Positions 3,236 through 54,963 of a stretch of 54,963 nucleotides of DNA are shown piece after piece (position 1 is the first letter of the stretch; every line of letters begins with the position of its first letter). The stretch covers positions 1-54,963 of IMG/VR virus record IMGVR_UViG_3300046009_012335; one strand, written 5' to 3'. Source of the stretch: a virus. Its lineage: Duplodnaviria; Caudoviricetes. The notes under the pieces were generated by a model. The model searched no databases. It saw only the letters and a list, made by a program, of their open reading frames with translations, and was not told where the DNA came from. Position numbers and translations under genes: made by a program.

Positions 3236-3427
3236 ATGAATAAAGGCAACACTATAATCTTCACAACACCGTTTGATAGTAATGAACGTACTGGAGTCAT
3301 TCAAGAGGTGACTTCAGCAGGTTATCTAGTAAACGGTGTTTGGTATGGTAAAAATGATATCAAAGTGAAAAATATTTTACTTGACAGTAGAAATTCCTAC
3401 GACAATAACCAACTAATCCTTGGTTAA
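3236..3427 (+). CDS. Hypothetical protein (63 aa)
   Basis: Fills the gap between sheath and tube, starts 1 nt after the sheath stop. Confidence 0.7.
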   Translation: MNKGNTIIFTTPFDSNERTGVIQEVTSAGYLVNGVWYGKNDIKVKNILLDSRNSYDNNQLILG

Positions 3428-3465
3428 GTTTAAAGTAAAAATGACACTAAAACATAAATAATAAT

Positions 3466-14929: not shown

Positions 14930-14984
14930 ATTATTATTTATTAATTCTTAGTATATTTCTATTCTCGATCTAAATATTATTACA

Positions 14985-33412: not shown

Positions 33413-33432
33413 ATTATTATTTATTTATTAGA

Positions 33433-38900: not shown

Positions 38901-39320
38901 AATTGTCGGGGTTTCAGAAGGTGTGATAGATGGCGTTTCACTAATTGACGGTGTTAATGACGCTGCTACAGTTTGTGAAGGCGTAGCTGTAGGCGTTTCA
39001 GATGGTGATATAGATTCTGATGGCGTTACTGTAGGGGTTAATGACGGTGTTTCTGAAGGAGTAATTGATGGTGTTAATGACGGTGTCTCTGATGGGGTAA
39101 TTGATAAAGACAATGACGGTGTAACTGATGGTGTTGTTGACGGTATTAATGGAGCTTCAGAAAGAGATGGTGTTGAAGATGGTGTTATCGAAGGCGTAGG
39201 TGTGGGTGATATTACTATAAATGAGCTTGAAGGTGTAGGGGTGGGGGATATTGTAAATATGGGGGTAGGTGCTAGAAAGGCAGCACTGAATACAGCATAT
39301 TGTGAAGCACCGAACGGCAT
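35910..39320 (-). CDS. Mucin-like stalk fibre protein with RCC1 beta-propeller and C-terminal beta-sandwich
   Basis: MPFGA N-terminus, about 520 aa S/T/P repeats, about seven 50-aa RCC1 repeats (AIKTDGTLWxWGxN..G.LGL.D..NRSSPVQVG), 200-aa terminal domain. Confidence 0.88.
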   Translation of the reverse strand: MPFGASQYAVFSAAFLAPTPIFTISPTPTPSSSFIVISPTPTPSITPSSTPSLSEAPLIPSTTPSVTPSLSLSITPSETPSLTPSITPSETPSLTPTVTPSESISPSETPTATPSQTVAASLTPSISETPSITPSETPTITPSVSESISVTPSLTPSETPSITSSVSITPSETPSETPSITPSETPSITSSVSITPSVSNTPSETPSETPSITPSMTVSITPSLTPTSSESSSVTPTPSVSSSLQLSPSVTPSETPSITPSATPSETPAASPSITPSETPSESVTPSLTPSETPSTTPSYTPTNSVTVTPSETPSETATPSLTPSLTPSETATPSVTPSETPTVTQSITPSETPTQSVSPSVTPSETPSITPSETPTPSVTSSITPSLTPTRTPSVTSSITPTPSITPTRTPSLTSSVTPTTSITPSLTPSRTPSLTSTPSVTPSLTPSVTPSLTSTPSVTPSRTPSITPSLTSTPSVTPSLTPSRTPSLTPSRTPSLTSSVTPTVTSSPSQTPSVTPTPSVTPTLTPSRTPSLTPTPTVTPSTSLVDQYKLYAWGYGGDGNLGDGTSATRSSPVQVGTAVNWKHVQGGRWYSIGTRRDGTIWGTGQNAAGNLGLNNTTAQNTFTQIGALTNWSVFSVSAWGGGTGTVLAVKTDGTLWTWGSNGHGQLGLGDTNNRSSPVQVGVGTTWSKVSIKNRSAIAVKTDGTLWAWGSNTNGELGLNDTVYRSSPVQVGVLTNWSQVTSAIASSFAIKTDGTLWAWGSNSFTALGLGDSTNRSSPVQVGALTNWSKITGSYWNCIAIKTDNTLWSWGYNVSGMLGLGDSTNRSSPVQVGALTNWSSIGIGEQNSIAIKTDGTLWTWGSNSSYGELGLNDRVNRSSPVQVGANTNWIEPDGGSGFSFAIEFVPIFPSPTPSITPSRTPTPTPSSSPPQTLWNFFASSAPAGISTFTATSAPNYAYDWNVSQGLRTVGDAATGFVYTVQPTASYSGNNLFQVSFYNVNSDNCGDPGVAIWPTSNGRTSPIWTWGAQSSRIAAQMNCPQPVIYGYSNGTNGTSGTYSLNTWYTLHFYHEPSLGRCRFAVTQGQNDWTRSGALFSPEITLNESIASSYYFGIASDNDGGTLGGQQTAFSGLKVTPL
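36640..37665 (-). repeat. RCC1-like coding repeats (about 7 x 150 nt)
   Basis: Recurrent SSPVQVG / KTDGTLW units. Confidence 0.85.
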
Positions 39321-44399: not shown

Positions 44400-44409
44400 A
44401 TAAAATTAT

Positions 44410-46530
44410 TTATTCTAACGAAAGTGTTAAAGGTGTTACTAGAGCAAGAATAGATCTCTGGAACGTGCGGCCTTCAATAACACCTGTCTCTTGCACGATT
44501 GTAAATCCATTACCTACTCTAAAGTCACCGAAGTTGTTCGTTGACGTAAAGTAAACGCTAGCACCTCCTGTTGCAGAGGTTTCTTGTACAATAGAACCCA
44601 CACCACCTAATGATGGTAAAGCTCTTGATAATACATTGCCAGAGCCAACGTACTCAAATGTATGTGAGCTTGTTGTAATTTGACTCTTTAGATAGAAGTT
44701 TACTGTACCATTTGCTGGTATTGGGTTAGTAGTTGCAGCAATATTGCGTAATTGGAATGCAGCATTTGCTGGATTGGTATTTGTAACTACATCAACTGCG
44801 TATAAAGTACCAGGAGCTGGATCGTTACTAATTGTATACACTAAGCCATTATATGGAGCAGAAATAGGTACTGTCCAAGAATTATGTGTATTATACGTTG
44901 GTAATGTATATGTAGCAAACGCACCTGATACGTTAATTGTATCAGTATTAAACGGAATGTCTTGAGTAACAAGAGCCGTTAATACTGGAGCACTTGAATA
45001 GCCTTGAGCTAATAATCCGAAAATACCGAATGAACAATTAGAAGTATTAATTGAGCATTGACCACCGTTATCAGCTTGTACACCTGATGAACAGCAAATA
45101 GTAAATGTCGATACTAATTGTGCATACCCGTTATTAGTAATGTGAATACCAATACCACCTTGATTGGTTTGTGTGAATGAATCTAATACAAAGCTTCTTA
45201 AAAAGCCTCTTACTAAATTACCATCAACTCTAATACCGCAACCACCTGGCTTACCATTATCAGGATCGCCAGTAATAGATGAACAACCTTGTACGTAAGG
45301 CGATGTTACGATAAATGGTCTTGTACTTGGTGAAGCGATATTATATAGATTTGGTTGACCAACTTCATCCCCGTAACGATAAGCTTTAGCTGTCATTGCA
45401 TCATTACGTGTCGTCCAAGGCACTCCTGAACCAGAAGACAATACTGGGAATGCATTTGCAGCAGCTGGTGATTGGTGATTTCTAAAAGTAAAGCCCCAAG
45501 TATAGTTAGCATTATTTTGCCATAAGATATCGTAAGTTGGATTCTTAGCAAAAATGTTTGCTCTTCTTAAGTTATCACTCATCAATGATGTTGATGGTGG
45601 TAAGTAGATTGGATTTTCTTCAACGTAATTACCAGCATAGCACCAAATTGTATATTGCTTATTTGCACTTAATCCTGGAGCTCCTGGATTGTCTGGATTG
45701 CTGAATAGACCTGTTTGATTCTTAGCAACATAAGCTGCAGCTCTCTTAATCGTTCTGAACGGTGTGAACATCGTTTCACCGTCATTGTTATCGTCACCTG
45801 ATACTGAAACGTAAACTGTATTAGCAATTGGAGGTAATGCTGCAGCAACATCTGCATATAACGTACCAGTTACTGATAAACTACCGTTAATAGTTCCGGT
45901 TTCAGCAGCTGCAATATTAAATCCTGGAACTGTATCAGTACCAACCGCTAACTTCTTTGCAAATAGATCATCACGTACCGATAAGCTACCTGTCATTGAA
46001 TCGCCGGAAGCGTTAACGTAACGTGTATCTAACTCCGGTAATGAAAGTCTCGCTGATTGTGAATTTGTGTATAAAAATGCATTGTACCATTCAGTTGAAT
46101 TACCATCATTACCAGCATATACTAAATACTTTGCACTTAAATTCTCAACTAACGTATAATTGTCAGCGAATGCTTGTATGTCATTACCAACGATGAAAGT
46201 GAAATTGTAATTGTTTGTGTTTCTTCTACCACCTAATATACCACCGTAAGCACCGGTTTGTAAATTATCATTACCTATCTGTAAAGAACTTAAAGAAGCT
46301 TTGTAAATAAAGCCACCGTAAGCAGATAAATTATCATTTTCATTTACTTGAACCCAGCCATTGTCACCAGCTGCAGATAAATCAATACCAAGATTGAAAT
46401 AATCCTGTAAAGTGGATAGTTCAACCTTATAAGTGGTTGCACCGTGTACGATAGGCAGTACGTCCCCTGCCGTTAAAGGTAAAACTGTTTGATTAACTAC
46501 CGGAAGTTCAGAAATTTTTACGAAGGACAT
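44410..46530 (-). CDS. Tail fibre/spike protein with beta-helix (pectin-lyase-like) domain
   Basis: VKISELP N-terminus; VYVSVSGDDNNDG...PFRTIKRA, GNYVEENPI, SPYVQ, DSFTQ, SHTFEYVGSG. Confidence 0.75.
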   Translation of the reverse strand: MSFVKISELPVVNQTVLPLTAGDVLPIVHGATTYKVELSTLQDYFNLGIDLSAAGDNGWVQVNENDNLSAYGGFIYKASLSSLQIGNDNLQTGAYGGILGGRRNTNNYNFTFIVGNDIQAFADNYTLVENLSAKYLVYAGNDGNSTEWYNAFLYTNSQSARLSLPELDTRYVNASGDSMTGSLSVRDDLFAKKLAVGTDTVPGFNIAAAETGTINGSLSVTGTLYADVAAALPPIANTVYVSVSGDDNNDGETMFTPFRTIKRAAAYVAKNQTGLFSNPDNPGAPGLSANKQYTIWCYAGNYVEENPIYLPPSTSLMSDNLRRANIFAKNPTYDILWQNNANYTWGFTFRNHQSPAAANAFPVLSSGSGVPWTTRNDAMTAKAYRYGDEVGQPNLYNIASPSTRPFIVTSPYVQGCSSITGDPDNGKPGGCGIRVDGNLVRGFLRSFVLDSFTQTNQGGIGIHITNNGYAQLVSTFTICCSSGVQADNGGQCSINTSNCSFGIFGLLAQGYSSAPVLTALVTQDIPFNTDTINVSGAFATYTLPTYNTHNSWTVPISAPYNGLVYTISNDPAPGTLYAVDVVTNTNPANAAFQLRNIAATTNPIPANGTVNFYLKSQITTSSHTFEYVGSGNVLSRALPSLGGVGSIVQETSATGGASVYFTSTNNFGDFRVGNGFTIVQETGVIEGRTFQRSILALVTPLTLSLE

Positions 46531-46598
46531 TTATATTATTTATTGGCTGAATAGATTAAAATGCACTAAACCAATTGAAAATACTACTTGACTTACTC

Positions 46599-46849: not shown

Positions 46850-46865
46850 GGAACAGTTTTATAAT
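46850..46865 (+). promoter_or_regulatory. GGAAC-N5-TATAAT promoter
   Basis: 5 nt upstream of ATG 46871. Confidence 0.7.
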
Positions 46866-46870
46866 AAAGA

Positions 46871-47278
46871 ATGGCACGTAAACATAAGTTCTTCAACTAC
46901 GAATTCGAAGATGGTACTGTTCAAGTGCCTTCTTCATATAAAGCTAAATGCAACATCTCTGGTGAGTTTGTACCGATTTATCATAAGAATCTGGTAAAAC
47001 TTATTGAAAAGGATTACAAGAATAATTTCAGTTTGTTTGTAAAAACGTTTTCTCAAAAGGGTGCTAAAAAGAAGCAACAAGAGGAAGCAGGTTATAATGG
47101 AGACAAGTATTCATTGAATGCTTACTCTGATTATCTTGTAATATGTTATCAAGGGTGTATTGAAACTTTGAAAGACAATTATAATAAATCTGCAATTGCT
47201 AAAGCTAAAACTGAAATGTCTTTTCTAGCTGATTGTTTTCATCGCCATTTTAATCGCGACATTAAGAAATTTGTCTAG
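46871..47278 (+). CDS. Hypothetical protein (135 aa)
   Basis: ORF with own promoter motif. Confidence 0.75.
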   Translation: MARKHKFFNYEFEDGTVQVPSSYKAKCNISGEFVPIYHKNLVKLIEKDYKNNFSLFVKTFSQKGAKKKQQEEAGYNGDKYSLNAYSDYLVICYQGCIETLKDNYNKSAIAKAKTEMSFLADCFHRHFNRDIKKFV

Positions 47279-47293
47279 GAACTGTGATACAAT
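47278..47293 (+). promoter_or_regulatory. GGAAC-N5-TACAAT promoter
   Basis: 6 nt upstream of ATG 47300. Confidence 0.7.
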
Positions 47294-47299
47294 ATAACT

Positions 47300-48238
47300 A
47301 TGCAACTCAATATCGACTCGTCTACGTTTACTAAGGTATCTGATATTCAAATTCCGGATGTATTTTATCGCCGGATGAAGACTGGAGTAACTGAAATTGA
47401 TGAACTATTCGGTGAAGGTATTCTTCCTGGATCATCTTTTACAGTTACTGCTCGTGCAGGGTGTGGTAAGACAACGTTTCTTCTGCAAGTGTTTGAAGCA
47501 TTGGCTAATATGGGGTATTCAGTAGGTTATACTTCTGGTGAAGAGAATACTTTCCAACTTGCATTCAATTGCAGACGTCTTAATGTTAAGAGTGTTCGTA
47601 TTGCTAATCTTACTGACGTTGATGAAATTGTGAATCAAATGGTAGATCTTGATGCTATTGTTATTGATTCGTTTCAATCTTTGTCTAGTAAGACGGAAAT
47701 GAATACAAGAGAGTTTGAAACTTATGCAGTTAATACTCTTGTACAAGCAGCTAAGACACATGAGTGTTCTATCTTTTTTATCATGCATCTTACTAAGGCA
47801 GGTGTGCTTAAGGGAGGTACTCTTATTCCGCATACTGTAGATGTTAATATGATGATTGAAGTAGATGAAGAAGCTGGTGATGACCGCTCTCGTATTATCT
47901 CTTTCTATAAGAATCGTTTTGGTCCTTGTAATTCTTTTAGTACCCTTCTTACTGAAACTGGATTTATGATGCTCGGTAAGTATGTTGTTATGGATAGTAC
48001 TATCAATAAGAAGCAACGTATGAAAAGCAATTCAGATAAAGTACTTGCAATGACTGAGCCTCCTTTCATTACTAAGAAGCGTGTAATGAATGAGCTTAAT
48101 CTTACTTCGTCTCAAGCGTATGTGTTGCTTAAGGAAATGTGCGATCGCGATCTTATTAAGAAGTTTGGTCGTGGAGATGATGCTGTATACAAGGCAGTAC
48201 GTGTAAATATTAATCAAGAAGTCGAAGCAGACTTTTGA
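47300..48238 (+). CDS. RadA/Sms-like RecA-fold ATPase with C-terminal winged-helix
   Basis: TGVTEIDELFG.GILPGS, AGCGKTT, YTSGEE, IVIDSFQ, HLTKAG, HTVD, KNRFG (RadA signature). Confidence 0.85.
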   Translation: MQLNIDSSTFTKVSDIQIPDVFYRRMKTGVTEIDELFGEGILPGSSFTVTARAGCGKTTFLLQVFEALANMGYSVGYTSGEENTFQLAFNCRRLNVKSVRIANLTDVDEIVNQMVDLDAIVIDSFQSLSSKTEMNTREFETYAVNTLVQAAKTHECSIFFIMHLTKAGVLKGGTLIPHTVDVNMMIEVDEEAGDDRSRIISFYKNRFGPCNSFSTLLTETGFMMLGKYVVMDSTINKKQRMKSNSDKVLAMTEPPFITKKRVMNELNLTSSQAYVLLKEMCDRDLIKKFGRGDDAVYKAVRVNINQEVEADF

Positions 48239-48243
48239 TTTTT

Positions 48244-48259
48244 GGAACATCTTTAATAT
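48244..48259 (+). promoter_or_regulatory. GGAAC-N5-TAATAT promoter upstream of tRNA-Leu
   Basis: Motif match; boxA-like GTTCTTTAA at 48272-48280. Confidence 0.6.
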
Positions 48260-48282
48260 ATAGATGTAATAGTTCTTTAAAT

Positions 48283-48368
48283 GCCCGAGTGGTGGAACGG
48301 TAGACACTACAGACTTAAAATCTGTTGTTCGAGAGGACGTGCCGGTTCGAGTCCGGCCTCGGGTACCA
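48283..48368 (+). tRNA. tRNA-Leu (TAA)
   Basis: GCCCGAG/CTCGGGT acceptor, ACAGA-CTTAAAA-TCTGT, variable arm, GTTCGA T-loop, encoded CCA. Confidence 0.96.
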
Positions 48369-48375
48369 TTTTTGT

Positions 48376-48846
48376 ATGATTATCTTTAAACCTTCTGCGG
48401 AAATTAAAAAAAGATTCAAAGATATAGATTTCAAAAGCTTGTCAATGGTTTATTCATTGCTGCTTTCAAGTGTGGAGAAAGGAAAGAAAAAACAGAGTAA
48501 AATTTATACCATTAATCTTTACTATTCAAAAAAGACTAGTTCGTATTATTACTTTAAACGCGATCACATTACCTTTGGTAGTGATGTTCAGACAACAAGA
48601 GCTTTTCATGTAAGTCTCTTGCATGAGTTTAGACATTTTTGTCAAGACCGTTGTTTGAAGATTCCATTTACAGTAAAAAATTATAATGACGCTACGTACT
48701 CAACGTATATGAATTCTCCTATTGAGATTGATGCGAACAATTACACAACTAATAACATTGCTCGTGTAATGCAATATTATAAGAGGATTGTGTCATTGAG
48801 AAATAAATTTGCTGAATTTAGTGATTATACGGGAAACAAAGTATAA
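48376..48846 (+). CDS. Putative zinc metallopeptidase (HExxH); start revised to ATG 48376
   Basis: [10 protein letters not shown]...SPIEIDA zincin pattern; the longer ORF start lies inside tRNA-Leu. Confidence 0.65.
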
Positions 48847-48853
48847 TATTAAT

Positions 48854-49084
48854 ATGCAAGACGATCGAGTTCAAAAACTTATTGAGATGGGTATTCTGCC
48901 TGATCCTAATTACGTTCCTCGTGAAACTGGACGTAATCGTTTTGGGCGTATGATATATGGGCATAAGACCGCTGGTACTATTGAAATTCTTACTAAAGAG
49001 ACTTTCGACGATACTAAGCGTTATTACGTGGCTAATGGTGCGCGTTCAGCAGTAAAAAACTTTTCTAAAAACGTATGCAAGTAA
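48854..49084 (+). CDS. Hypothetical protein; start revised to ATG 48854
   Basis: GGAAA-N5-TATAAT-N6-ATG upstream. Confidence 0.65.
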   Translation: MQDDRVQKLIEMGILPDPNYVPRETGRNRFGRMIYGHKTAGTIEILTKETFDDTKRYYVANGARSAVKNFSKNVCK

Positions 49085-49266
49085 ATAGTGAATTCATAGA
49101 CAGGATTATTATAGCTGCGGAAAGAGAGATCCAAGGTAAGCAAATGGTAAATGTAAGTGTTGTTGAAAACCTTATTGAAACATTGCGTACTATTAATAAT
49201 GCAAGTGCTATTCATGCAATTGATTCAACAATTGTAGACAATCAGCATCTTTTGAACTATGATTAA
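49075..49266 (+). CDS. Hypothetical protein (63 aa)
   Basis: Overlapping chain of small ORFs. Confidence 0.6.
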   Translation: MQVNSEFIDRIIIAAEREIQGKQMVNVSVVENLIETLRTINNASAIHAIDSTIVDNQHLLNYD

Positions 49267-49456
49267 TAAAGAGGATATAGTTTTCGAAGCTAAGGTGAGT
49301 GGGTATTATTTTTACTATGATGGTGATTTCATCAGTATGTACGATGACCAAGCCATCGATAATAAAAACGCTAATTGTGTATCGAGATCTAGAACAAATT
49401 GTAAGACGAAGAAGGACTTCGAACTAGAAACTATCTATATGGTGCATAATCTTTAA
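49259..49456 (+). CDS. Hypothetical protein (65 aa)
   Basis: Overlapping chain of small ORFs, converges on the next gene. Confidence 0.6.
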   Translation: MINKEDIVFEAKVSGYYFYYDGDFISMYDDQAIDNKNANCVSRSRTNCKTKKDFELETIYMVHNL

Positions 49457-50853
49457 GCTTTTTGTATAGCATTAAAGCTTGCAAAAACAGTTGCACTAGC
49501 TCCTAATCCCATACCAGCAACTACTAAGGTATCCGGGTCACTATTAATCTTCGTACCAAACCTTCCAAATAGTGAAGTAATTTCTACTCCCCCGGTACCA
49601 GCTGCTGTCCCCTGACTTTTCGGCACATATCCAGAGTATAAACTAAAACCTCCACTTAAGGTAATAGTGTTACTACCAATAGCAAATTGCAAATAAGAAT
49701 TCTCAATATTTTGCCAATTTAAAGATGTGTTAAAAGAAGGATTTCTGTACACTTTGTAAAGAATATTGGTAGTGTTATCTGTATTATATAGATCAAACGT
49801 TTTACCTAAAAACGCCAAATTGGAAAATTGAGGGTTAACTCTTACAGCTAATATTGGCGTCATTATGTTGTTTTGCACTGTAACCGCTGACGACAAAGAA
49901 GCAGTAACTGCTACACCAAGCACCTCTTCTGTACCCTCTTCAACAACTGAAGCACAAATTTGTTTTAAGGTACCTGACCCAGCTCCAGATTGTCTTATTT
50001 CATATCTCACCGGCTGGTTAGGTGATGTCATATACGGAGCTTGTAAAGCATTAAAATTTGTTACCTGGTGAGCGTAATATAATTTTCCTTGTAAAAAGAA
50101 ACCAAATCTTACTCTTCCTAACCCTAACCATTCAAAGTCAATAGCAAGGATTTGTCCTTTAGTAAAATCGATAGATAAACCAGACGCTCCGGTACCATCT
50201 AACTTATCTATATTCCACGCTGATTGTGGTACGGTAAGAGAATTTAAAGTGCCTTGAGTTTTTACAACATTAAAGCTAGGACCGTTTGATCCTATTTCAA
50301 GATACAAACCGTCTGTTGGAGTGTATGGTGCTGCTGATAAACTTTGAAATGACCCTATTCTTTTTATTATGTTTGTTTCCGGTGCTGCTACAAACGTATA
50401 AACACAAAACATACTTTTACCAGGTTGATAATTAAAACGTGATGTAGTTTGTCTTATTACAAATCCTCCATCACCGGATGTAGACATAGTTATTAAACTA
50501 TCATTCGGTACAAAAGTACTGGTACCGATACTCATTACTTCATCGTAGAATTGAGGTTGCTTATCATATAAGAACTTACCATCAAATAAAGTGATAGGTA
50601 AACCAACTCTCAATCTACCAAATGCATCAGATGATGCATTGTCTCCAAACGGCGATGAATTTGTATCCTGGGCTCCGACGTCATATGTTAAAACAGCTTT
50701 CTTAGAATAAATGTTTGTCTGTGACGTATTACCATCATAACTCTGAATTACAGACGTTACTGGGGGGAATCTAGAATCATTTAATATTTCAACAAATTTG
50801 TTGTATTCTAAATCTCTGATATTACTTGAAACTAAATTAGAGTTAATGGACAT
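49453..50853 (-). CDS. Late (probably virion) protein with beta-sandwich core
   Basis: DAFGRLRVG.P.TLFD, YQPGKS, WNIDKLDGTG.SG, DFEWLGLGRVRFG; late promoter 50861-50866. Confidence 0.7.
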   Translation of the reverse strand: MSINSNLVSSNIRDLEYNKFVEILNDSRFPPVTSVIQSYDGNTSQTNIYSKKAVLTYDVGAQDTNSSPFGDNASSDAFGRLRVGLPITLFDGKFLYDKQPQFYDEVMSIGTSTFVPNDSLITMSTSGDGGFVIRQTTSRFNYQPGKSMFCVYTFVAAPETNIIKRIGSFQSLSAAPYTPTDGLYLEIGSNGPSFNVVKTQGTLNSLTVPQSAWNIDKLDGTGASGLSIDFTKGQILAIDFEWLGLGRVRFGFFLQGKLYYAHQVTNFNALQAPYMTSPNQPVRYEIRQSGAGSGTLKQICASVVEEGTEEVLGVAVTASLSSAVTVQNNIMTPILAVRVNPQFSNLAFLGKTFDLYNTDNTTNILYKVYRNPSFNTSLNWQNIENSYLQFAIGSNTITLSGGFSLYSGYVPKSQGTAAGTGGVEITSLFGRFGTKINSDPDTLVVAGMGLGASATVFASFNAIQKA

Positions 50854-50866
50854 GTTAAAGTATTTA

Positions 50867-51055
50867 TTAGCAATGGTAGTTAATGTAGCGTTGAGCTTGT
50901 TTTTTGGTAAGTGTATTTTTTGAGCTCTTCATAGCTCTTGCTTTACTACAAGTAATTTTACCTTTACCAAAACGCTTGGTAACCAATCTTTTGAGCCGTC
51001 CTGGATGACGAGCTTTATGATCTGCTTTTTCGAAAAATAATAAAAACGTTTCCAT
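50867..51055 (-). CDS. Small basic protein, candidate internal head protein
   Basis: METFLLFFE N-terminus, K/R-rich, TAATG-coupled to the upstream late gene. Confidence 0.55.
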   Translation of the reverse strand: METFLLFFEKADHKARHPGRLKRLVTKRFGKGKITCSKARAMKSSKNTLTKKQAQRYINYHC

Positions 51056-51375
51056 TAGTAAACTGTGAGAGGGAAGCTAGAGAAGAATTGAGTACGGTAT
51101 GTAATATTACCGGAACCAGCAGAAACTAATGCACTTAAAGTATTGCTATTTGTAATACCTCTAATAGTTACTTCATTTCCAGGGAACAATGCAAAGTAAT
51201 TATTTCCACTTAATTGTGGTACGGGAGTGCTTTGTGCGTCAAAAATATAAACCGGCTGCGTACCATGATTATAGAAATAAACCTCTGAACAAGAATATGC
51301 TGATAATGGTCTTAAAATTGTAGTCACTACATCAGTAACAGAGAAACAAAGGTTTAAATTGGTAAAATTAGCCAT
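51055..51375 (-). CDS. Small late protein; start revised to ATG 51375
   Basis: TAAATA (51381-51386)-N5-ATG giving MANFTNLNL. Confidence 0.7.
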   Translation of the reverse strand: MANFTNLNLCFSVTDVVTTILRPLSAYSCSEVYFYNHGTQPVYIFDAQSTPVPQLSGNNYFALFPGNEVTIRGITNSNTLSALVSAGSGNITYRTQFFSSFPLTVY

Positions 51376-51408
51376 ACAATTATTTATGAAAAAACAAGTT
51401 GAAACATA

Positions 51409-51424
51409 GGAACAGTGATATATT
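51409..51424 (+). promoter_or_regulatory. GGAAC-N5-TATATT promoter
   Basis: Upstream of ATG 51433; TTGAAA further upstream. Confidence 0.6.
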
Positions 51425-51432
51425 ATTAAGGT

Positions 51433-51657
51433 ATGAAGAATCCTAACCAAACTTGGAATAAGTACCTGAAGAATAAGAACGTTCGCCCGAAGGTTTTTCG
51501 TGCTACGATCGTTCGTAATGAAGATGGTACCTTCCAGCTTCTCGGCAACGAGACGCGTATGCTTAACGTCATCAACCAGTACTCCGATAAGTGGGTATCT
51601 GTTGATACCCGTGATTTTGCTGCTACGTTGAATCGTAGCAAGATCAAGGCTCTGTAA
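51433..51657 (+). CDS. Small basic hypothetical protein (74 aa)
   Basis: Own promoter and terminator; many AAC/ATC/CGT/AAG codons suggest high expression. Confidence 0.8.
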   Translation: MKNPNQTWNKYLKNKNVRPKVFRATIVRNEDGTFQLLGNETRMLNVINQYSDKWVSVDTRDFAATLNRSKIKAL

Positions 51658-51680
51658 GCTAGGCGTAAATTCAAACTACA

Positions 51681-51710
51681 AGCCTAGGTTAATAGCCTAG
51701 GCTTTTTTTT
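51681..51710 (+). terminator. Rho-independent terminator (with competing antiterminator arm at 51655-51664)
   Basis: AGCCTAGG-TTAATAG-CCTAGGCT followed by T run. Confidence 0.9.
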
Positions 51711-52346
51711 ATGATAGTAGTAGCACCAGAACAAAAAACAAGTCTTCTTATTAATAGATTGTATCAACCTTTCAGCTTTTGCACAGCAAGAGCTGCTATC
51801 AGGCATTTGATGTCTGAAAAGGTTAAAGGTATTGATGCAATGGGTAATGTTGTGTCTTGGTCCGGAGCTGATATGGCTAATGTAAGCTCACTGAGATGGT
51901 TTAATAATGAAGTGAACTTGTATGAAGATCAACCTTGCCTACGTAGTGCACCGGATGCTACAACCGGATATGAAAAACGCTGGGCTATTCCAACGATTTT
52001 AGTTTGCAATCATTCTTTCGGTATTCATAAGAGAAGAGGAGAGAATTGTTCTTTGAAGACCATTTATAATGTATACAAAGGAGTATGTCAGTACTGCTAT
52101 GAAAAGATACCTTATATTAGAGCAACAAAAGATCATGTAATGCCTAAGAGTTTAGGTGGATCTAATGATGACTTTAATATAGTTCTTGCATGCAGAGAGT
52201 GTAATAATAAGAAGAATAACATTTTCCCATTTCTTGATATTCATGGAAAAGAGGTAAAACCTCGTAATATCCATTTGCGCAACATAGTTCCTGAGAATGT
52301 TAAGATGAGAGAAGAGTGGAAACCTTTTTTCTTTTGGGAACATTGA
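51711..52346 (+). CDS. HNH endonuclease (tRNA-array-associated type)
   Basis: LLINRLYQP N-terminus, CQYC, TKDHVMPKSLGG, NIVLACRECNNKK. Confidence 0.92.
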   Translation: MIVVAPEQKTSLLINRLYQPFSFCTARAAIRHLMSEKVKGIDAMGNVVSWSGADMANVSSLRWFNNEVNLYEDQPCLRSAPDATTGYEKRWAIPTILVCNHSFGIHKRRGENCSLKTIYNVYKGVCQYCYEKIPYIRATKDHVMPKSLGGSNDDFNIVLACRECNNKKNNIFPFLDIHGKEVKPRNIHLRNIVPENVKMREEWKPFFFWEH

Positions 52347-52370
52347 TATAATGGTGAAGTTCATTAAATA
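52337..52370 (+). promoter_or_regulatory. Tandem GGAAC-N5-TATAAT and late TAAATA promoters for leader peptide / tRNA array
   Basis: GGAAC 52337-52341, TATAAT 52347-52352, TAAATA 52365-52370, ATG 52377. Confidence 0.65.
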
Positions 52371-52376
52371 ATTTAG

Positions 52377-52466
52377 ATGCAGGAAAGATCCAAACAGACG
52401 TTGATTAGCTGGTGTATTGATAATAATATGTCAATAACAGCACGCTATCCATTGTCTATGGGTTAG
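52377..52466 (+). CDS. Putative 29-aa leader (attenuator) peptide MQERSKQTLISWCIDNNMSITARYPLSMG
   Basis: Below the ORF-track cutoff; TAAATA-N6-ATG like other genes; stop codon lies in an antiterminator arm. Confidence 0.65.
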   Translation: MQERSKQTLISWCIDNNMSITARYPLSMG

Positions 52467-52492
52467 AGTAAATTCAAATCTTTGAAAACTTT

Positions 52493-52522
52493 AACCCTAA
52501 GCCTTGAAAGCTTAGGGTTTTT
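52493..52522 (+). terminator. Rho-independent terminator (attenuator 3:4 hairpin)
   Basis: AACCCTAAGC-CTTGAAA-GCTTAGGGTT followed by TTT. Confidence 0.88.
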
Positions 52523-52533
52523 AATTGATGCCA

Positions 52534-52748
52534 GGCTAGTGCTATAACTAGCCCAAACGTCCGACAAAGGGTATCCAAACCGGTGAATAAAAAGCCGAGA
52601 GGGGTAAAACCAACAAGTTCTTTGTTTGTTAGACTGGCCTTGGACGGTCTTTAAACTAAGCCAAGATTATCTGCGAAAGTCCGCAAAAGTGCCAGTGGGT
52701 CCAACCCATAACGGTGTAGACTTGACAAGGACGGAGAGACGTCCGCCA
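52534..52748 (+). ncRNA. Structured non-coding RNA region of unknown class
   Basis: GC-richer, multiple stems, boxA-like GTTCTTTG, ends GGACG-N6-CGTCC-GCCA. Confidence 0.55.
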
Positions 52749-52754
52749 ATTTTT

Positions 52755-52833
52755 GGATGGTGAGCTAGTCTGGTGATTTCAGCGCACGCCTGAAGAGCGT
52801 GATAACTTGGTTCAATTCCAAGACCATCCACCA
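52755..52833 (+). tRNA. tRNA-Phe (GAA)
   Basis: GGATGGT/ACCATCC, CACGC-CTGAAGA-GCGTG, CCA. Confidence 0.93.
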
Positions 52834-52846
52834 TAAATAAAATGAC

Positions 52847-53620
52847 ATGGCTAATTGTATTATTATAAATGGCGGTAATGGATTGTTTTTAGTTACTGCT
52901 AACGACGGTTTAGGTAAAGTTGTAAGTGAAACTAAACAATGGGAGCCATGGTTTAATATAATAGCTAAACTAACTGTATTGCCTGGTGATGCAGTAATTG
53001 ATTGCGGTGCTAACTTCGGTTATCATTCTATTACATTAGCCAATCTTATAGGGCCGCAAGGTAAGTTAGTTACGATAGAGCCTTTAAGACAAGTTTATCA
53101 ACAGCTTTGCGGTAATATGTTTCTAAACAATATTAGAAACGCTTGGTGCTTAAACAATGCTGTAGGTGATGAATTTAAAACTGTAGAAATGCTTCCGATT
53201 GATTTAGATGATAATAGCACAACTAACATTGGAGCAACGAGAGTAGGTGATGGTGGCGATAAAGTAAAAATGATTACTTTAGATAGTTTATTAGAAGATG
53301 GTCTATTTGAAGATAAAAGAGTTTCATTTATAAAGTTAGATGTGCAGGGTCATGAGATAAAAACGCTATTAGGTGCATCTAAGTTGATAGATAAATGTAG
53401 ACCAGTGATGATGATTGAAAATGAATATTGGTATTTGGAAGTTTACGGAGGTAATTCGCAAATGCTATATGATACACTTTTAAGTAGGAACTACAGTATA
53501 ATTAAAAACAATAATATTGTAGACATATTTGCAATACCTAATGAAAAGAGTCATTTGATTCCTACATTATTGCAAAGTTTTGAAGCAATAGGATTACAGA
53601 ATTTAGAAGTTTTAAGATAA
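52847..53620 (+). CDS. FkbM-family SAM-dependent methyltransferase
   Basis: IDCGANFGYHS, IEP, NAVG, TLDS, FIKLDVQGHE..L.GA...I...RP. Confidence 0.9.
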   Translation: MANCIIINGGNGLFLVTANDGLGKVVSETKQWEPWFNIIAKLTVLPGDAVIDCGANFGYHSITLANLIGPQGKLVTIEPLRQVYQQLCGNMFLNNIRNAWCLNNAVGDEFKTVEMLPIDLDDNSTTNIGATRVGDGGDKVKMITLDSLLEDGLFEDKRVSFIKLDVQGHEIKTLLGASKLIDKCRPVMMIENEYWYLEVYGGNSQMLYDTLLSRNYSIIKNNNIVDIFAIPNEKSHLIPTLLQSFEAIGLQNLEVLR

Positions 53621-53623
53621 TTT

Positions 53624-53698
53624 GCCCTTGTAGCACAGCGGTAGTGCAACAGTTTTGTAAACTGTAGGTCGTCGGTTCAAATCCGACCGGGGGCTCCA
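53624..53698 (+). tRNA. tRNA-Thr (TGT)
   Basis: Cloverleaf, ACAGT-TTTGTAA-ACTGT, CCA. Confidence 0.95.
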
Positions 53699-53701
53699 TT
53701 T

Positions 53702-53780
53702 CCGGCCGAGACAATCGGACCCGGCGCGGTAGGTTCACCATGGTTCCGTGTTAACAAGATCCTTAAAACTGTGGTACTAA
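53702..53780 (+). ncRNA. Hairpin plus H-type pseudoknot RNA candidate
   Basis: GCGCGG/CCGTGT stem whose loop ACCATGGTT pairs with downstream AACTGTGGT. Confidence 0.4.
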
Positions 53781-53813
53781 TTTATTTTGGTCAGTCTAAT
53801 TACCTGATCAAAA

Positions 53814-53891
53814 GTCCATTCGTGATGTCGCTGGTAAGCCGGTTCAGTTGACTAAGGAATCGGTTACAGGTTCGAAGCCTGTCGGATGGAC
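53814..53891 (+). ncRNA. tRNA-like RNA (9-bp acceptor-like stem, canonical T arm, abnormal anticodon arm, no CCA)
   Basis: GTCCATTCG/CGGATGGAC; ACAGG-TTCGAAG-CCTGT; CCGGTTC-N11-GAATCGG. Confidence 0.6.
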
Positions 53892-53903
53892 GTTAATTTT
53901 TAT

Positions 53904-54035
53904 CTCCGAGAGAGTGCGGGTGAACGCCTCTGTTAGTGGTAGAACTTCAATGATGCTAACAGGTATAAGCTACATAGAGTAAGGAATTGAAGCCTGAAAG
54001 TGTTATAGCAGCTTAATCAGCTGCCTCGGAGTCCA
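53904..54035 (+). ncRNA. 132-nt tRNA-like RNA with CCA end and predicted kissing loops
   Basis: CTCCGAG/CTCGGAG-T-CCA; GCAGC-TTAATCA-GCTGC; loop CTTCAAT complementary to loop ATTGAAG. Confidence 0.7.
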
Positions 54036-54043
54036 ATTTTTAC

Positions 54044-54134
54044 GGTAGAGTGGCTGAGTGGCTTAAGGCAGCGCTCTTGAAAAGCGAAGGTCGCTAATAA
54101 CGGCCCGTAGGTTCAAATCCTACCTCTACCGCCA
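54044..54134 (+). tRNA. tRNA-Ser (TGA)
   Basis: GGTAGAG/CTCTACC, CTTGAAA loop, long variable arm, G73-CCA. Confidence 0.95.
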
Positions 54135-54140
54135 TTTTAC

Positions 54141-54225
54141 GGGTTAGTCGCATAGCGGCAATTGCAGGAGACTGTAAATCTCCCGGCTCCGGCCTCCCTT
54201 GGTTCGAGTCCAAGCTAGCCCACCA
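54141..54225 (+). tRNA. tRNA-Tyr (GTA)
   Basis: GGAGA-CTGTAAA-TCTCC, variable arm, CCA. Confidence 0.95.
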
Positions 54226-54289
54226 TTTAACAGTACAGGGAAGTTACGGGACCGAGAGCTTGTATCTCTTTGAAGTCTCAGCAATTTTT

Positions 54290-54364
54290 ACGGACGTGGT
54301 ATAGTGGTTGTGCAGCAGTCTCCAAAACTGCCTCATGGGAGTTCGATTCTCTCCGTCCGTGCCA
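54290..54364 (+). tRNA. tRNA-Trp (CCA)
   Basis: ACGGACG/CGTCCGT, GCAGT-CTCCAAA-ACTGC, G73-CCA. Confidence 0.93.
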
Positions 54365-54368
54365 ATTT

Positions 54369-54432
54369 TTACTGGCTGTGCCTTTTTAGAAAAGAGGCTC
54401 GGGCTGCACGGTGAATGCAGACGGACCAGTAA
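54369..54432 (+). ncRNA. Small three-way-junction RNA candidate
   Basis: TTACTGG/CCAGTAA closing stem with GCCTTTT/AAGAGGC and CTGCA/TGCAG hairpins. Confidence 0.5.
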
Positions 54433-54442
54433 TTCATTTTAT

Positions 54443-54518
54443 GGGGTGGTAGCATAATGGTAAATGCAACGGCTTGTCACGCCGTAGACTGGGAGTTCGA
54501 CCCTCCTCCATCCCGCCA
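54443..54518 (+). tRNA. tRNA-Asp (GTC)
   Basis: ACGGC-TTGTCAC-GCCGT, G73-CCA. Confidence 0.94.
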
Positions 54519-54524
54519 TTTTTA

Positions 54525-54607
54525 GGGCATGTGGCGTAACGGCAGCCGCGAAGGTCTTAGAAGCCTTTGTCAATGACGTGTAGGTTCGAATCCTATCATG
54601 CCCACCA
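54525..54607 (+). tRNA. tRNA-Leu (TAG)
   Basis: GGGCATG/CATGCCC, AAGGT-CTTAGAA-GCCTT, variable arm, CCA. Confidence 0.95.
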
Positions 54608-54611
54608 ATTT

Positions 54612-54686
54612 AGGTCTATGGTGAAACGTATATCACGCAACGCTACGGACGTTGTATTATAGGTTAGATTCCTATTAGACCTACCA
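54612..54686 (+). tRNA. tRNA-Arg (ACG)
   Basis: AGGTCTA/TAGACCT, CAACG-CTACGGA-CGTTG, atypical T-loop TTAGATT, CCA. Confidence 0.9.
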
Positions 54687-54687
54687 T

Positions 54688-54778
54688 GGAAGACAAAGTG
54701 ATTAGGAATCACACCTGTTTGCTAAACAGAGGGATGGGTATAAAGCCTGTTGCGTTTCGAGTACGCTGTCTTCCGCCA
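54688..54778 (+). tRNA. tRNA-Ser (GCT), 8/4 cloverleaf
   Basis: GGAAGACA/TGTCTTCC 8-bp acceptor, GCGT/ACGC 4-bp T stem, long variable arm, G73-CCA. Confidence 0.88.
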
Positions 54779-54779
54779 T

Positions 54780-54857
54780 AGTGCTCTAGCTCAATTGGTT
54801 TAGAGCATTCGATTGATAATCGAAAGGTTTCCGGTTCAATCCCGGAGAGCACTACCA
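54780..54857 (+). tRNA. tRNA-Ile (GAT)
   Basis: AGTGCTC/GAGCACT, TTCGA-TTGATAA-TCGAA, CCA. Confidence 0.95.
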
Positions 54858-54862
54858 TTTTT

Positions 54863-54937
54863 GCACGTATAGCCAAACGGCCAGGCAAGAGTCTGCAAAA
54901 CTCTCACATATCAGTTCGAGTCTGATTACGTGCTCCA
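54863..54937 (+). tRNA. tRNA-Cys (GCA)
   Basis: GCACGTA/TACGTGC, AGAGT-CTGCAAA-ACTCT, U73-CCA. Confidence 0.95.
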
Positions 54938-54938
54938 A

Positions 54939-54963
54939 TTTGCAGTAGTGTAGCGGTAACACC
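54939..54963 (+). tRNA. 5' part of a further tRNA, truncated by the window edge (identity not visible)
   Basis: TA-GTGT-AGCGGTA-ACAC D arm. Confidence 0.7.

What the first reader, a model, noticed from the sequence alone, without database searches (positions are those of the whole stretch)
52337..52522. Leader-peptide attenuator gating the phage ncRNA/tRNA array
Seen: unannotated 29-codon ORF (52377-52466) followed by mutually exclusive helices like the trp attenuator. 1:2 = CTATCCAT (52445-52452) with ATGGGTTAG (52458-52466). 2:3 antiterminator = GGGTTAGAGT (52460-52469) with ACTTTAACCC (52488-52497), 10 bp plus an inner TTCAA/TTGAA stem. 3:4 terminator = AACCCTAAGC/GCTTAGGGTT plus U-run. 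Segment 1 encodes R-Y-P and segment 2 spans the stop. Inference: a ribosome stalled a few codons before segment 2 frees 2:3 and turns on the tRNA array, i.e. the phage senses translation failure (for example host anticodon nucleases or starvation) and supplies replacement tRNAs on demand. I know of no described phage tRNA operon controlled this way.
Basis: partly seen in the sequence, partly recalled or inferred. Interest (0 to 1): 0.9.

Follow-up and report, generated by a model that had tools for sequence, protein, structure and literature searches.

The report
Leader-ORF attenuator before phage tRNA array
A short translated reading frame followed by two competing RNA hairpins, one of them a transcription terminator, sits in front of the transfer-RNA gene array of a family of uncultured lake phages and probably lets the phage switch its own tRNA supply on or off according to how well ribosomes are working.

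Summary
The sequence features are real.

I analysed 29 distinct relatives' leaders from IMG/VR and metagenome contigs.
- 25 carry the same module between a promoter and a conserved ncRNA plus tRNA array. It consists of a 23-41-codon ORF, a hairpin A whose 3' arm overlaps the terminator's 5' arm by 4-12 nt, and a stop codon at or in A's 5' arm.
- 4 lack the module, and there the promoter abuts the ncRNA.

Supporting results:
- ORF sequences are near random identity between lineages, yet the frame stays open.
- The ORF has phage-like codon usage in 14 of 17 lineages and the phage's usual TAAATA start context in 23 of 25.
- The shared segment and both of its partners co-vary in three subfamilies.
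- The A and T states are near iso-energetic.
- Masking a ribosome footprint at the stop gives the full terminator in 14 of 14.

Best reading (0.6): a ribosome-dependent transcription attenuator gating the ncRNA/tRNA array. It is a new variant of a known mechanism.

What the attenuator senses is inferred, not shown. No expression data exist. In this window, candidate internal promoters downstream weaken the claim that the whole array is gated.

The parts
51711..52346 (+). HNH endonuclease gene, the conserved upstream neighbour of the module
   Evidence: Pfam HNH_5/HNH, E 1e-12. It is 61% identical to the L012 homologue. Its homologues led to 7 syntenic metagenome loci.
52337..52352 (+). Promoter-like element GGAACATTGATATAAT (TGnTATAAT extended -10)
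   Evidence: The motif GGAACAnnnnTATAAT occurs 6 times in the window against 0.84 expected. It stands at the same place in L088, L089, L090, L091, L134 and L149. Other relatives have TTGACT/TTGACA-N17-TATAxx there.
52365..52372 (+). TAAATAAT element 4 nt before the ORF's ATG; the phage's usual gene-start context (promoter or translation signal, not resolved)
   Evidence: TAAATA lies within 20 nt upstream of 18 of 44 long-ORF starts, against 29 of 1903 ATG trinucleotides overall. It precedes 23 of 25 family sORFs.
52377..52466 (+). Leader ORF, 29 codons plus TAG; one Trp (52410-12), one Cys (52413-15) and one CGC Arg (52443-45)
   Evidence: The frame is conserved in 25 of 25 module-bearing leaders. 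It has the most CDS-like codon usage of the three frames in 14 of 17 lineages.
52396..52457 (+). Long imperfect hairpin H1 inside the ORF, ending 2 nt before the A arm
   Evidence: Window z -3.97, p 0.003. Mean z is -3.0 over 17 lineages, with p <= 0.023 in 12 of 17.
52387..52392 (+). GATCCA, predicted to pair with TGGGTT (52459-64) before the A 3' arm exists; a possible anti-antiterminator
   Evidence: Pairing probability 0.95 against 0.58 in flank shuffles, p 0.03. Not general in the family.
52460..52497 (+). Hairpin A (antiterminator): 5' arm 52460-69, inner stem 52473-77/52482-86, 3' arm 52488-97
   Evidence: An overlapping hairpin this long arose in <= 6 of 300 shuffles in 13 of 17 lineages (window 17 of 300).
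52493..52498 (+). Shared segment AACCCT, which pairs either with the upstream (T)GGGTT or the downstream AGGGTT
   Evidence: Three-way table. The subfamilies are AACCCT, AACCTCTG and GACCTCTG, and both partners change to match in each.
52493..52522 (+). Intrinsic terminator T: 10-bp stem, 7-nt loop, five T's
   Evidence: T is present in 25 of 25 module-bearing leaders with 10-12 bp and 5-7 T's. The stop codon lies 24-36 nt before its 5' arm.
52524..52667 (+). Conserved structured ncRNA of no known family, directly after the T-run
   Evidence: In a 13-sequence alignment, 11 of 23 predicted pairs keep pairing through changes on both sides. No Rfam match.
52755..52833 (+). Atypical tRNA-Phe(GAA) candidate
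   Evidence: Called by ARAGORN. The Rfam tRNA score is 25.9, below the gathering score of 29.
52847..53620 (+). FkbM-type methyltransferase gene lying between the ncRNA and the main tRNA array (in this window only)
   Evidence: Pfam Methyltransf_21, E 4e-19. In relatives, tRNA-Thr follows the ncRNA directly or after short RNA elements.
53487..53502 (+). Candidate internal promoter GGAACTACAGTATAAT upstream of tRNA-Thr
   Evidence: One mismatch from the over-represented motif. Function untested.
53624..54937 (+). tRNA array: Thr, Ser, Tyr, Trp, Asp, Leu, Arg(ACG), Ser, Ile, Cys; continues beyond the window end

Best explanation
The stretch 52337-52522 is the 5' leader of the transcription unit that makes a conserved ncRNA and the phage's tRNA array. 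It most likely works as a ribosome-dependent transcription attenuator.

Proposed mechanism:
1. RNA polymerase starts at the promoter just after the HNH gene.
2. The first thing transcribed is a short ORF carrying the phage's normal start context.
3. Behind the ORF, hairpin A and the intrinsic terminator T compete for one shared segment (AACCCT).
4. A ribosome that reaches the stop codon, which lies inside A's 5' arm, covers that arm. The shared segment then pairs downstream, T forms, and transcription ends before the ncRNA and tRNAs.
5. If the leading ribosome is absent, late or stalled further up in the ORF, A forms first. A takes the GC-rich base away from T, and the polymerase reads on into the array.

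The array would therefore be made more when translation of the leader is slow or failing.

Shown by sequence comparison:
- the parts themselves and their geometry;
- their conservation and covariation;
- their position in front of the array.

Inferred, not shown:
- translation of the ORF;
- termination at T;
- the direction of the switch;
- the physiological signal.
For: (1) Position.
- In 25 of 29 distinct leaders the module lies between a promoter-like site and the ncRNA/tRNA array.
- In 4 (L233, L267, L249, L117) it is missing, and the promoter/TAAATA element abuts the same ncRNA 5' sequence.
- L117 equals L094 apart from a clean deletion running from ORF codon 8 to the T-run.

(2) The switch.
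- A's 3' arm overlaps T's 5' arm by 4-12 nt in 25 of 25.
- The shared segment and both partners change together in three subfamilies.
- The second and third subfamilies were found through the downstream ncRNA, not through the attenuator sequence.
- A is longer than in shuffles, with <= 6 of 300 shuffles reaching it in 13 of 17 lineages.
- The A-state minus T-state energy difference is -4.6 to +3.3 kcal/mol. A is favoured in 8 of 14 and T in 6 of 14.
- With 13 nt from the stop masked, the MFE holds the full T in 14 of 14.

(3) The ORF.
- It is present in 25 of 25, although ORF regions of different lineages are about as alike as shuffled pairs (mostly 46-69% against 52 +/- 4%).
- Shuffles give such an ORF in 2-18% of trials.
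- Its frame has the most CDS-like codon usage in 14 of 17 lineages.
- TAAATA precedes 23 of 25.
- The stop lies -3 to +16 nt from A's start and 24-36 nt before T's 5' arm.

(4) The leader ORFs are rich in the phage's rarest codons.
- Trp is present in 16 of 17 lineages, Cys in 15 of 17 and CGC in 10 of 17.
- CDS frequencies of these are 0.7%, 0.7% and 0.09%.
- TGG is enriched in frame against out of frame (16 of 483 vs 8 of 932, p 0.001).
- The arrays encode tRNA-Trp, tRNA-Cys and tRNA-Arg(ACG).

(5) No Rfam family covers the leader.
Against: - There is no expression, 3'-end or ribosome data: no RNA run is listed, and the host is unknown.
- There are no tandem regulatory codons. The positions of Trp and Cys vary, and in three lineages Trp lies too close to A (6-11 nt) for a ribosome stalled there to leave the arm free.
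- A conserved 1:2 element is not established (p 0.30). Without translation the default would then be read-through in most members, unlike trp.
- There is no Shine-Dalgarno sequence, though this is true of the phage's genes in general.
- TAAATA also precedes the ncRNA in module-less loci, so it may be a promoter and not a translation signal.
- The GGGTT/AACCC/GGGTT invariance in six IMG/VR members (L134-L198) is partly ascertainment, because I selected them with a regex containing those words.
- The covariation in the shared segment rests on two or three evolutionary events.
- The ORF body is itself strongly structured, so part of its conservation could serve RNA structure.
- In this window, candidate promoters downstream of T (53487-53502, and TAAATA before 52847) could drive the main array independently.
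Confidence: 0.6

Rival explanations
1. The module is an independent small gene. It would be a short mRNA, or a dual-function small RNA of about 130-190 nt, that encodes a 23-41-aa peptide and ends at its own terminator T. Hairpin A and the ORF-internal hairpin H1 would be stability or structural elements. The array would be made by ordinary leakage through T.
For: - The ORF has gene-like start context and codon usage.
- Weak shared peptide features exist: one Trp in 16 of 17 lineages, Cys in 15 of 17, and a [IS]x[KQ][WF] stretch near codons 8-12 in several, seen by eye.
- The whole leader is highly structured, like many small RNAs.
- One weak PHROG hit for the window peptide, E 0.007.
Against: - Peptide sequences are not alignable between most lineages. 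6 of 7 peptides have no PHROG hit and the window peptide has no Pfam hit.
- This reading does not explain why A must overlap T, why the shared segment co-varies with both partners, or why the stop always falls in A's 5' arm at a fixed distance from T.
- The module is always inserted exactly between the array's promoter and the ncRNA 5' end.
Confidence: 0.15
2. It is an attenuator or antiterminator switch whose input is not the ribosome. A phage or host RNA-binding protein, a small RNA or tRNA, or temperature would shift the A/T balance. Alternatively it is simply a tuned, partly leaky terminator that sets the ratio of leader to array transcripts or times array expression.
For: - The A and T states are near iso-energetic, so any small input could tip them.
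- The A/T overlap and covariation support a switch but do not name its input.
- H1 and A offer conserved structured surfaces.
- Two promoter types, sigma-70-like and TATAAATA-like, stand upstream in several members, which would fit temporal control.
Against: - The ORF is maintained in 25 of 25 despite saturated sequence divergence, with coding-like usage.
- Its stop sits in the A arm at constant spacing from T, which a ribosome-free switch does not need.
- No T-box or other Rfam riboswitch or leader match.
Confidence: 0.15
3. Chance or plain terminator: T is just the terminator of the HNH gene, and the ORF and hairpin A are accidents of AT-rich sequence.
For: In the window alone the ORF (430 of 5000 shuffles) and hairpin A (17 of 300 shuffles) are only mildly unusual.
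Against: - The module recurs in 25 leaders of 17 lineages with covariation.
- A promoter-like site lies between the HNH stop and the ORF in all of them.
- Module-less relatives have no terminator after HNH.
Confidence: 0.03

Closest known systems
Leader-peptide transcription attenuators of amino-acid operons (trp, his, leu, thr, ilv, pheA; pheST for a synthetase). Recalled from textbook knowledge; pheL appeared in the search listing only (PMC3082878).
   Same: A short leader ORF at the 5' end of the transcript. An antiterminator and an intrinsic terminator share a segment. The stop codon is placed so that a terminating ribosome covers the antiterminator's 5' strand. The stop-to-terminator spacing of about 60 nt is of the same order as in trp.
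   Different: There is no run of regulatory codons and no conserved 1:2 pause/anti-antiterminator helix. The controlled genes are an ncRNA and 20-27 tRNA genes, not biosynthetic enzymes. The element sits in phage genomes. The predicted default without translation is read-through.
Ribosome-stalling attenuators that sense translation inhibitors in front of resistance genes (e.g. vmlR: abstract start seen in the listing, PMC9226507; the Term-seq 'ribo-regulator' class is recalled from memory).
   Same: The architecture of uORF, antiterminator and terminator. No amino-acid-specific codon run. The input is the general progress of the ribosome. Slow translation gives read-through.
   Different: Those elements control ABC-F, efflux or methylase genes of bacteria. 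Here the output is the translation substrate itself (tRNAs), which would close a feedback loop, and the element is viral.
T-box leaders (tRNA-sensing riboswitches before synthetase and amino-acid genes).
   Same: A terminator/antiterminator choice linked to tRNA status.
   Different: No Stem I, specifier loop or T-box sequence. No Rfam hit at E <= 1. The leader is about 145 nt and contains an ORF.
Phage T4 tRNA gene cluster with its two small stable RNAs and an endonuclease gene inside (recalled; the SegB paper PMC2330249 was seen in the listing only).
   Same: A phage tRNA cluster co-transcribed with small stable RNAs of unknown function, with a homing-type endonuclease next to it.
   Different: To my knowledge, and in the four searches run, no leader ORF or attenuator has been described for T4 or any other phage tRNA cluster.

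Membership tests
trp-type leader-peptide attenuator | Short translated leader ORF at the 5' end of the transcript | tested here: inconclusive
   The ORF is conserved in 25 of 25, with coding-like usage in 14 of 17 and a gene-like start context in 23 of 25. Translation itself cannot be tested here.
trp-type leader-peptide attenuator | Tandem or clustered regulatory codons for the controlled amino acid | tested here: not met
   There are no runs. Single Trp, Cys and CGC codons occur at variable positions.
trp-type leader-peptide attenuator | Helix 1:2 (pause / anti-antiterminator) that competes with 2:3 | tested here: inconclusive
A free search for a partner gave p 0.30. The 5'-flank test gave Fisher p 0.009 over 14 lineages, positive in the window, L088, L093, L252 and L198 only.
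trp-type leader-peptide attenuator | Antiterminator 2:3 and terminator 3:4 share a strand | tested here: met
   The overlap is 4-12 nt in 25 of 25. Three-way covariation is seen and the two states have near-equal energies.
trp-type leader-peptide attenuator | Stop codon placed so that the terminating ribosome masks segment 2 | tested here: met
   The stop lies -3 to +16 nt from A's 5' start. Masking 13 nt from the stop gives the full T in 14 of 14. The footprint size is taken from general knowledge.
Ribosome-stalling (translation-inhibition-sensing) attenuators | uORF plus alternative terminator/antiterminator, without specific codon runs | tested here: met
Ribosome-stalling (translation-inhibition-sensing) attenuators | Read-through induced by ribosome stalling in the uORF | not testable with these tools
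   Needs Term-seq or reporter assays. No RNA run is listed.
T-box riboswitch | Stem I with specifier loop and the conserved T-box antiterminator bulge | tested here: not met
   No Rfam match at E <= 1 in the window's 47000-54963 stretch or in 8 relatives' loci.
Intrinsic (Rho-independent) terminator | GC-rich stem-loop followed directly by a U-run | tested here: met
   10-12 bp stems and 5-7 T's in 25 of 25. Termination activity is not testable here.

The most novel reading that the evidence does not exclude
A family of lake phages with near-complete tRNA sets (20-27 genes) puts the whole set under translational feedback. The leader ORF is loaded with the phage's rarest codons (Trp, Cys, Arg-CGC), whose tRNAs the array itself encodes, and acts as a speedometer. 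When charged tRNA runs short or is destroyed (codon demand late in infection, starvation, host anticodon nucleases), the lead ribosome lags. The antiterminator then forms, and the ncRNA and the replacement tRNAs are made on demand. This would be the first attenuator whose output is tRNA itself, and the first leader-peptide attenuator of a virus.
Probability: 0.35. Interest if true: 0.9.

Novelty: new variant of a known kind. Interest (0 to 1): 0.78.

Why it matters
Phage tRNA genes are usually treated as constitutive accessories for codon usage or as decoys against tRNA-cleaving defences. How their expression is controlled is largely unknown.

A conserved ribosome-sensing switch in front of whole tRNA arrays would mean several things:
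- Phages measure the state of the host's translation apparatus and answer by supplying its substrates.
- The question "why do phages carry tRNAs" would gain a directly testable handle: the leader's codons, its stop position and the A/T helices can all be mutated.
- Leader-peptide attenuation would extend to viruses and to non-coding outputs.
- A compact, portable sensor of translation speed would become available.

The natural variants without the module (L117, L233, L249, L267) offer ready-made comparisons.

Tried and rejected
- **Phage GenBank records.** Near and distant DNA searches gave only tRNA-sized matches or nothing.
- **Methyltransferase relatives.** The 10 loci carry no tRNAs and were useless for the leader.
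- **First ncRNA pattern.** It found only the L012 contig.
- **Loose hits of later patterns.** A second pattern gave three more loci, of which L116 and L118 are coding-sequence chance matches and L117 is the deletion variant.
- **Generic terminator pattern.** It hit 105 stretches (80 listed). I kept only those with an upstream GGGTT. I dropped L123, L152 and L157 by eye because their upstream GGGTT extends to at most 5 pairs or lies in a tRNA arm.
- **GC-rich 15-mer.** It hit 73 stretches. I kept only those with the full ncRNA 3' context.
- **MAFFT alignment of the hairpin region.** It misplaced L173 and L198, so pair tables were made by anchoring on each helix in scripts. The rank-by-rank 'double-sided change' flags mix registers, and I do not use them as covariation counts.
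- **ACA and TCA codons.** They looked enriched in frame and match the first two tRNAs of the arrays. They are equally common in the phage's ordinary genes (5.1% and 4.3%), so I reject them as regulatory codons.
- **Sequencing runs.** No RNA holder is listed.
- **Read laying.** On four DNA runs it showed contigs identical to the leader in three runs and pieces of co-occurring relatives. It gave nothing on expression or informative polymorphism (the first try did not complete).
- **PHROGs.** One weak hit (E 0.007) for the window peptide and none for 6 others.
- **The search of earlier findings.** Closed.
- **Papers.** Supplementary files were not consulted and no paper was read beyond the search listings.
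- **Pause site after H1.** I looked by eye for a consensus pause sequence and found nothing I would defend.
Full report
**What the window is.**
- The window is a 54,963-bp IMG/VR virus contig, estimated 26% complete.
- Near-identical contigs occur in lake-water metagenomes.
- The finding lies between an HNH endonuclease gene (51711-52346) and a run of RNA genes.
- Those RNA genes are, in order: a structured ncRNA, an atypical tRNA-Phe candidate, an FkbM methyltransferase gene, and at least ten tRNA genes running to the window's end.

**The observation.**
- The 29-codon ORF is listed.
- The terminator-like hairpin 52493-52519 with five T's is listed.
- The 171-nt leader folds with z = -5.6.
- In that fold, hairpin 2:3 (here called A) is fully formed and the terminator (T) is reduced to a shifted, weak stem. 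The two really do compete for AACCC(T) at 52493-52498.
Its 'segment 1' is the 3' strand of a much stronger hairpin, H1 (52396-52457), inside the ORF.
- Taken alone, the window is only mildly unusual. An ORF of that span arises in 430 of 5000 dinucleotide shuffles. An overlapping hairpin of at least 10 pairs arises in 17 of 300.

**How the relatives were found.**
- Annotated phage records gave nothing.
- A capsid-region protein led to one syntenic IMG/VR contig, L012.
- An alignment of the two HNH proteins led to 28 metagenome loci. Eight of these are 52-70% identical, and seven of the eight carry the leader. L095 ends at the HNH gene.
- Pattern scans brought more. One used the terminator and was then filtered by a regex.
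- Two other scans used the 3' end of the downstream ncRNA and were therefore blind to the attenuator.
- After removing identical copies I analysed 29 distinct leaders with one script.
- I grouped them by eye and by the identity matrix into 17 lineages, and used one representative per lineage for statistics.

**The module is conserved and separable.**
- 25 of the 29 leaders have the same parts in the same order:
  - a promoter-like site;
  - a TAAATA element;
  - an ORF of 23-41 codons (24 start with ATG; L240 starts with TTG);
  - hairpin A;
  - terminator T with a 10-12 bp stem and 5-7 T's;
  - directly after T, the ncRNA, followed by tRNA-Thr(UGU), tRNA-Ser(UGA) and further tRNAs.
- Where enough sequence is held the arrays have 20-27 tRNA genes (L198 27, L224 25, L226 24, L225 20).
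- Four leaders lack ORF, A and T altogether.
  - In L233, L267 and L249 the promoter/TAAATA element abuts the same ncRNA 5' sequence that follows the T-run elsewhere.
  - L117 equals L094 except for a clean deletion from ORF codon 8 to the T-run.
- The module is therefore a cassette in the 5' leader of the array's transcript. The promoter in front of the ORF is, at least in those relatives, the array's promoter.

**The switch.**
- A's 3' arm overlaps T's 5' arm by 4-12 nt in 25 of 25, with one mismatch allowed.
- Three sequence versions exist, written as A 5' base / shared segment / T 3' base:

| Subfamily | A 5' base | Shared segment | T 3' base |
|---|---|---|---|
| 1 | (T)AGGGTT(T) | (A)AACCCT | AGGGTT(T) |
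| 2 | CAGGGGTT | AACCTCTG | CAGAGGTT |
| 3 | CAGGGGTC | GACCTCTG | CAGAGGTT |

- L173 has AGGGTTC / GAACCCT / AGGGTTT.
- Changes in the shared strand are thus matched in both partners. This is what a two-state switch predicts and what a plain terminator does not need.
- These are only two or three independent events. In six IMG/VR members the words GGGTT and AACCC were part of my filter, so their invariance there is not evidence. The complementarity of the upper part of A, the ORF and the downstream RNA genes were not selected for.
- A is longer than chance, with <= 6 of 300 shuffles reaching it in 13 of 17 lineages. It is weaker in the window (17), L091 (11), L147 (37, an interrupted helix) and L149 (107, a bulged helix).
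- Forced A-state and T-state energies differ by -4.6 to +3.3 kcal/mol. A is favoured in 8 and T in 6 of the 14 tested.

**The ORF.**
- Between lineages the ORF regions are 46-69% identical, against 52 +/- 4% for shuffled pairs. Yet all 25 keep an open frame across the whole leader.
- In shuffles such a frame appears in 2-18% of trials (first 14 sequences).
- The ORF's frame has the most CDS-like codon usage of the three frames in 14 of 17 lineages.
- The phage's genes have no Shine-Dalgarno sequence but very often have TAAATA(A/T) a few bases before the ATG. That is 18 of 44 long ORFs, against 29 of 1903 ATG trinucleotides overall. The leader ORFs share this context in 23 of 25.
- TAAATA also precedes the ncRNA in module-less loci. 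It resembles the T4 late-promoter word TATAAATA (recalled from memory), so it may be a promoter giving nearly leaderless mRNAs. I cannot decide between the two readings.
- The stop codon lies -3 to +16 nt from the first base of A, 24-36 nt (median 29) before T's 5' arm, and 57-69 nt before the end of the T-run. No ORF runs into A's loop, A's 3' arm or T.
- With 13 nt from the stop's first base made unavailable (a footprint size taken from general knowledge), the best fold contains the complete T in 14 of 14.

**What the ORF might sense.**
- There are no codon runs.
- Against the phage's own genes the leaders are rich in its rarest codons.
  - Trp: 16 of 483 codons, against 0.69% in CDS.
  - Cys: TGT plus TGC together are 0.69% in CDS.
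  - CGC: 10 of 483 codons, against 12 of 13,420 in CDS.
- By lineage, Trp is present in 16 of 17, Cys in 15 of 17 and CGC in 10 of 17.
- In-frame against out-of-frame counts give p 0.001 for TGG and p 0.018 for CGC. Neither survives correction for 61 codons.
- All ten CGC codons lie at least 14 nt before A, where a stalled ribosome would leave A free. Trp and Cys positions vary and are sometimes too close.
- The arrays encode tRNA-Trp, tRNA-Cys and tRNA-Arg(ACG). However, they encode nearly everything, so the match is weak evidence.
- ACA and TCA, which match the first two tRNAs, are simply the phage's common codons.

**Other structure.**
- The ORF body forms a long imperfect hairpin H1 ending just before A. 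Mean z is -3.0, with p <= 0.023 in 12 of 17 lineages.
- In the window and some relatives the ORF's first codons can close this hairpin by pairing with A's GGGTT (window GATCCA 52387-92 with TGGGTT 52459-64). This would act as an anti-antiterminator.
- A targeted test gives Fisher p 0.009 over 14 lineages, but a free search gives p 0.30.
- H1 may be a pause hairpin or a brake on the ribosome. This is conjecture.

**Mechanism proposed, and its limits.**
- A ribosome at the stop masks A's 5' arm, so T forms and the array stays off.
- An absent, late or stalled ribosome lets A form first, so transcription reads through and the array is on.
- This works like trp-type and, more closely, like translation-inhibition-sensing attenuators. 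It fails two defining features of the trp type: codon runs and a conserved 1:2.
- Translation, termination and the direction of the switch are inferred.
- In this window the methyltransferase gene and two promoter-like elements lie between T and the main array, so here the attenuator may gate only the ncRNA and the first elements. These elements are TAAATA before 52847 and GGAACTACAGTATAAT at 53487-53502.

**Comparison with what is known.**
- Rfam has no family for the leader or the ncRNA.
- Four full-text searches returned no paper describing an attenuator or leader peptide before phage tRNA genes. I saw only titles and abstract starts and read no paper. Subscription journals are not covered.
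- I rate the finding a new variant of a known kind of mechanism.

Noticed in passing
window 52524-52667: A conserved structured ncRNA of no Rfam family lies directly after the terminator. In 13 sequences, 11 of 23 predicted pairs keep pairing through changes on both sides. Its 3' end looks like an H-type pseudoknot (GAGCG[..CCCGG..]CGCTC ... CCGGG); the window has CTTGG/CCAAG at the same place.
   Followed up: partly
window 52668-52754; L089 about 3352-3437: A second conserved RNA-like element (GCGAAAGTCCG ... GTAGACTTGACA.GG..GGAGAGAC..CCGCCAATTT) ends in GCCA like a tRNA acceptor end. It stands at different places in the arrays of the window and of L089.
   Followed up: no
window 52755-52833: ARAGORN calls a tRNA-Phe(GAA) with an oversized D region and the anticodon at position 38. 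Its Rfam tRNA score is 25.9, below the gathering score of 29.
   Followed up: no
window 52847-53620: An FkbM-type methyltransferase gene sits inside the RNA gene array. Its 10 relatives in IMG/VR (34-40% identity) are not next to any tRNA gene.
   Followed up: partly
whole window, e.g. 816-823, 3455-3462, 14933-14940(-), 33416-33423(-), 44405-44412(-), 46535-46542(-): Genes lack Shine-Dalgarno sequences. Instead TAAATA(A/T)T stands 3-9 nt before many start codons (18 of 44 long ORFs). It is either a late-promoter-like word giving leaderless mRNAs or an unusual translation start signal.
   Followed up: partly
window 4908, 22387(-), 46850, 51409, 52337, 53487: The promoter-like motif GGAACAnnnnTATAAT occurs 6 times (up to one mismatch) against 0.84 expected. 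At 46850 and 51409 it ends only 5-8 nt before an ATG.
   Followed up: partly
L117 (IMGVR_UViG_3300008113_002671), oriented position about 8700: A natural variant nearly identical to L094 in which ORF codons 9 onward, hairpin A and the terminator stem are deleted. The promoter, the first 8 codons, the T-run and the ncRNA remain.
   Followed up: yes
L300:6120-6196: ARAGORN reports a tRNA with a four-base anticodon (cctg) inside the array, a possible frameshift-suppressor-like tRNA. Its Rfam tRNA score is 42.7.
   Followed up: no
L249:8429-8800: ARAGORN calls a phage-borne tmRNA gene with tag peptide GISNMLKSLFAVNQQEAQLAA at the end of a module-less tRNA array.
   Followed up: no
L134, L143, L090, L226, L233, L240 and others, after the ncRNA: Another recurring small element (CCTACCTGCACTGAA..GGGT...GAAAGCAG.AATGCT.CTAGGTGCA..GTGGGA) lies between the ncRNA and tRNA-Thr. 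The arrays hold several conserved non-tRNA RNAs.
   Followed up: no
window 35910-39320 (-): A 1136-aa protein with six RCC1 repeats (Pfam RCC1-like domain, E 3e-76) lies among large structural-looking genes.
   Followed up: no
window 48283-48368: A lone tRNA-Leu(UAA) lies 4 kb upstream of the array. The same lone tRNA-Leu(UAA) recurs upstream in L012, L134, L149, L233, L240, L280 and L300.
   Followed up: no
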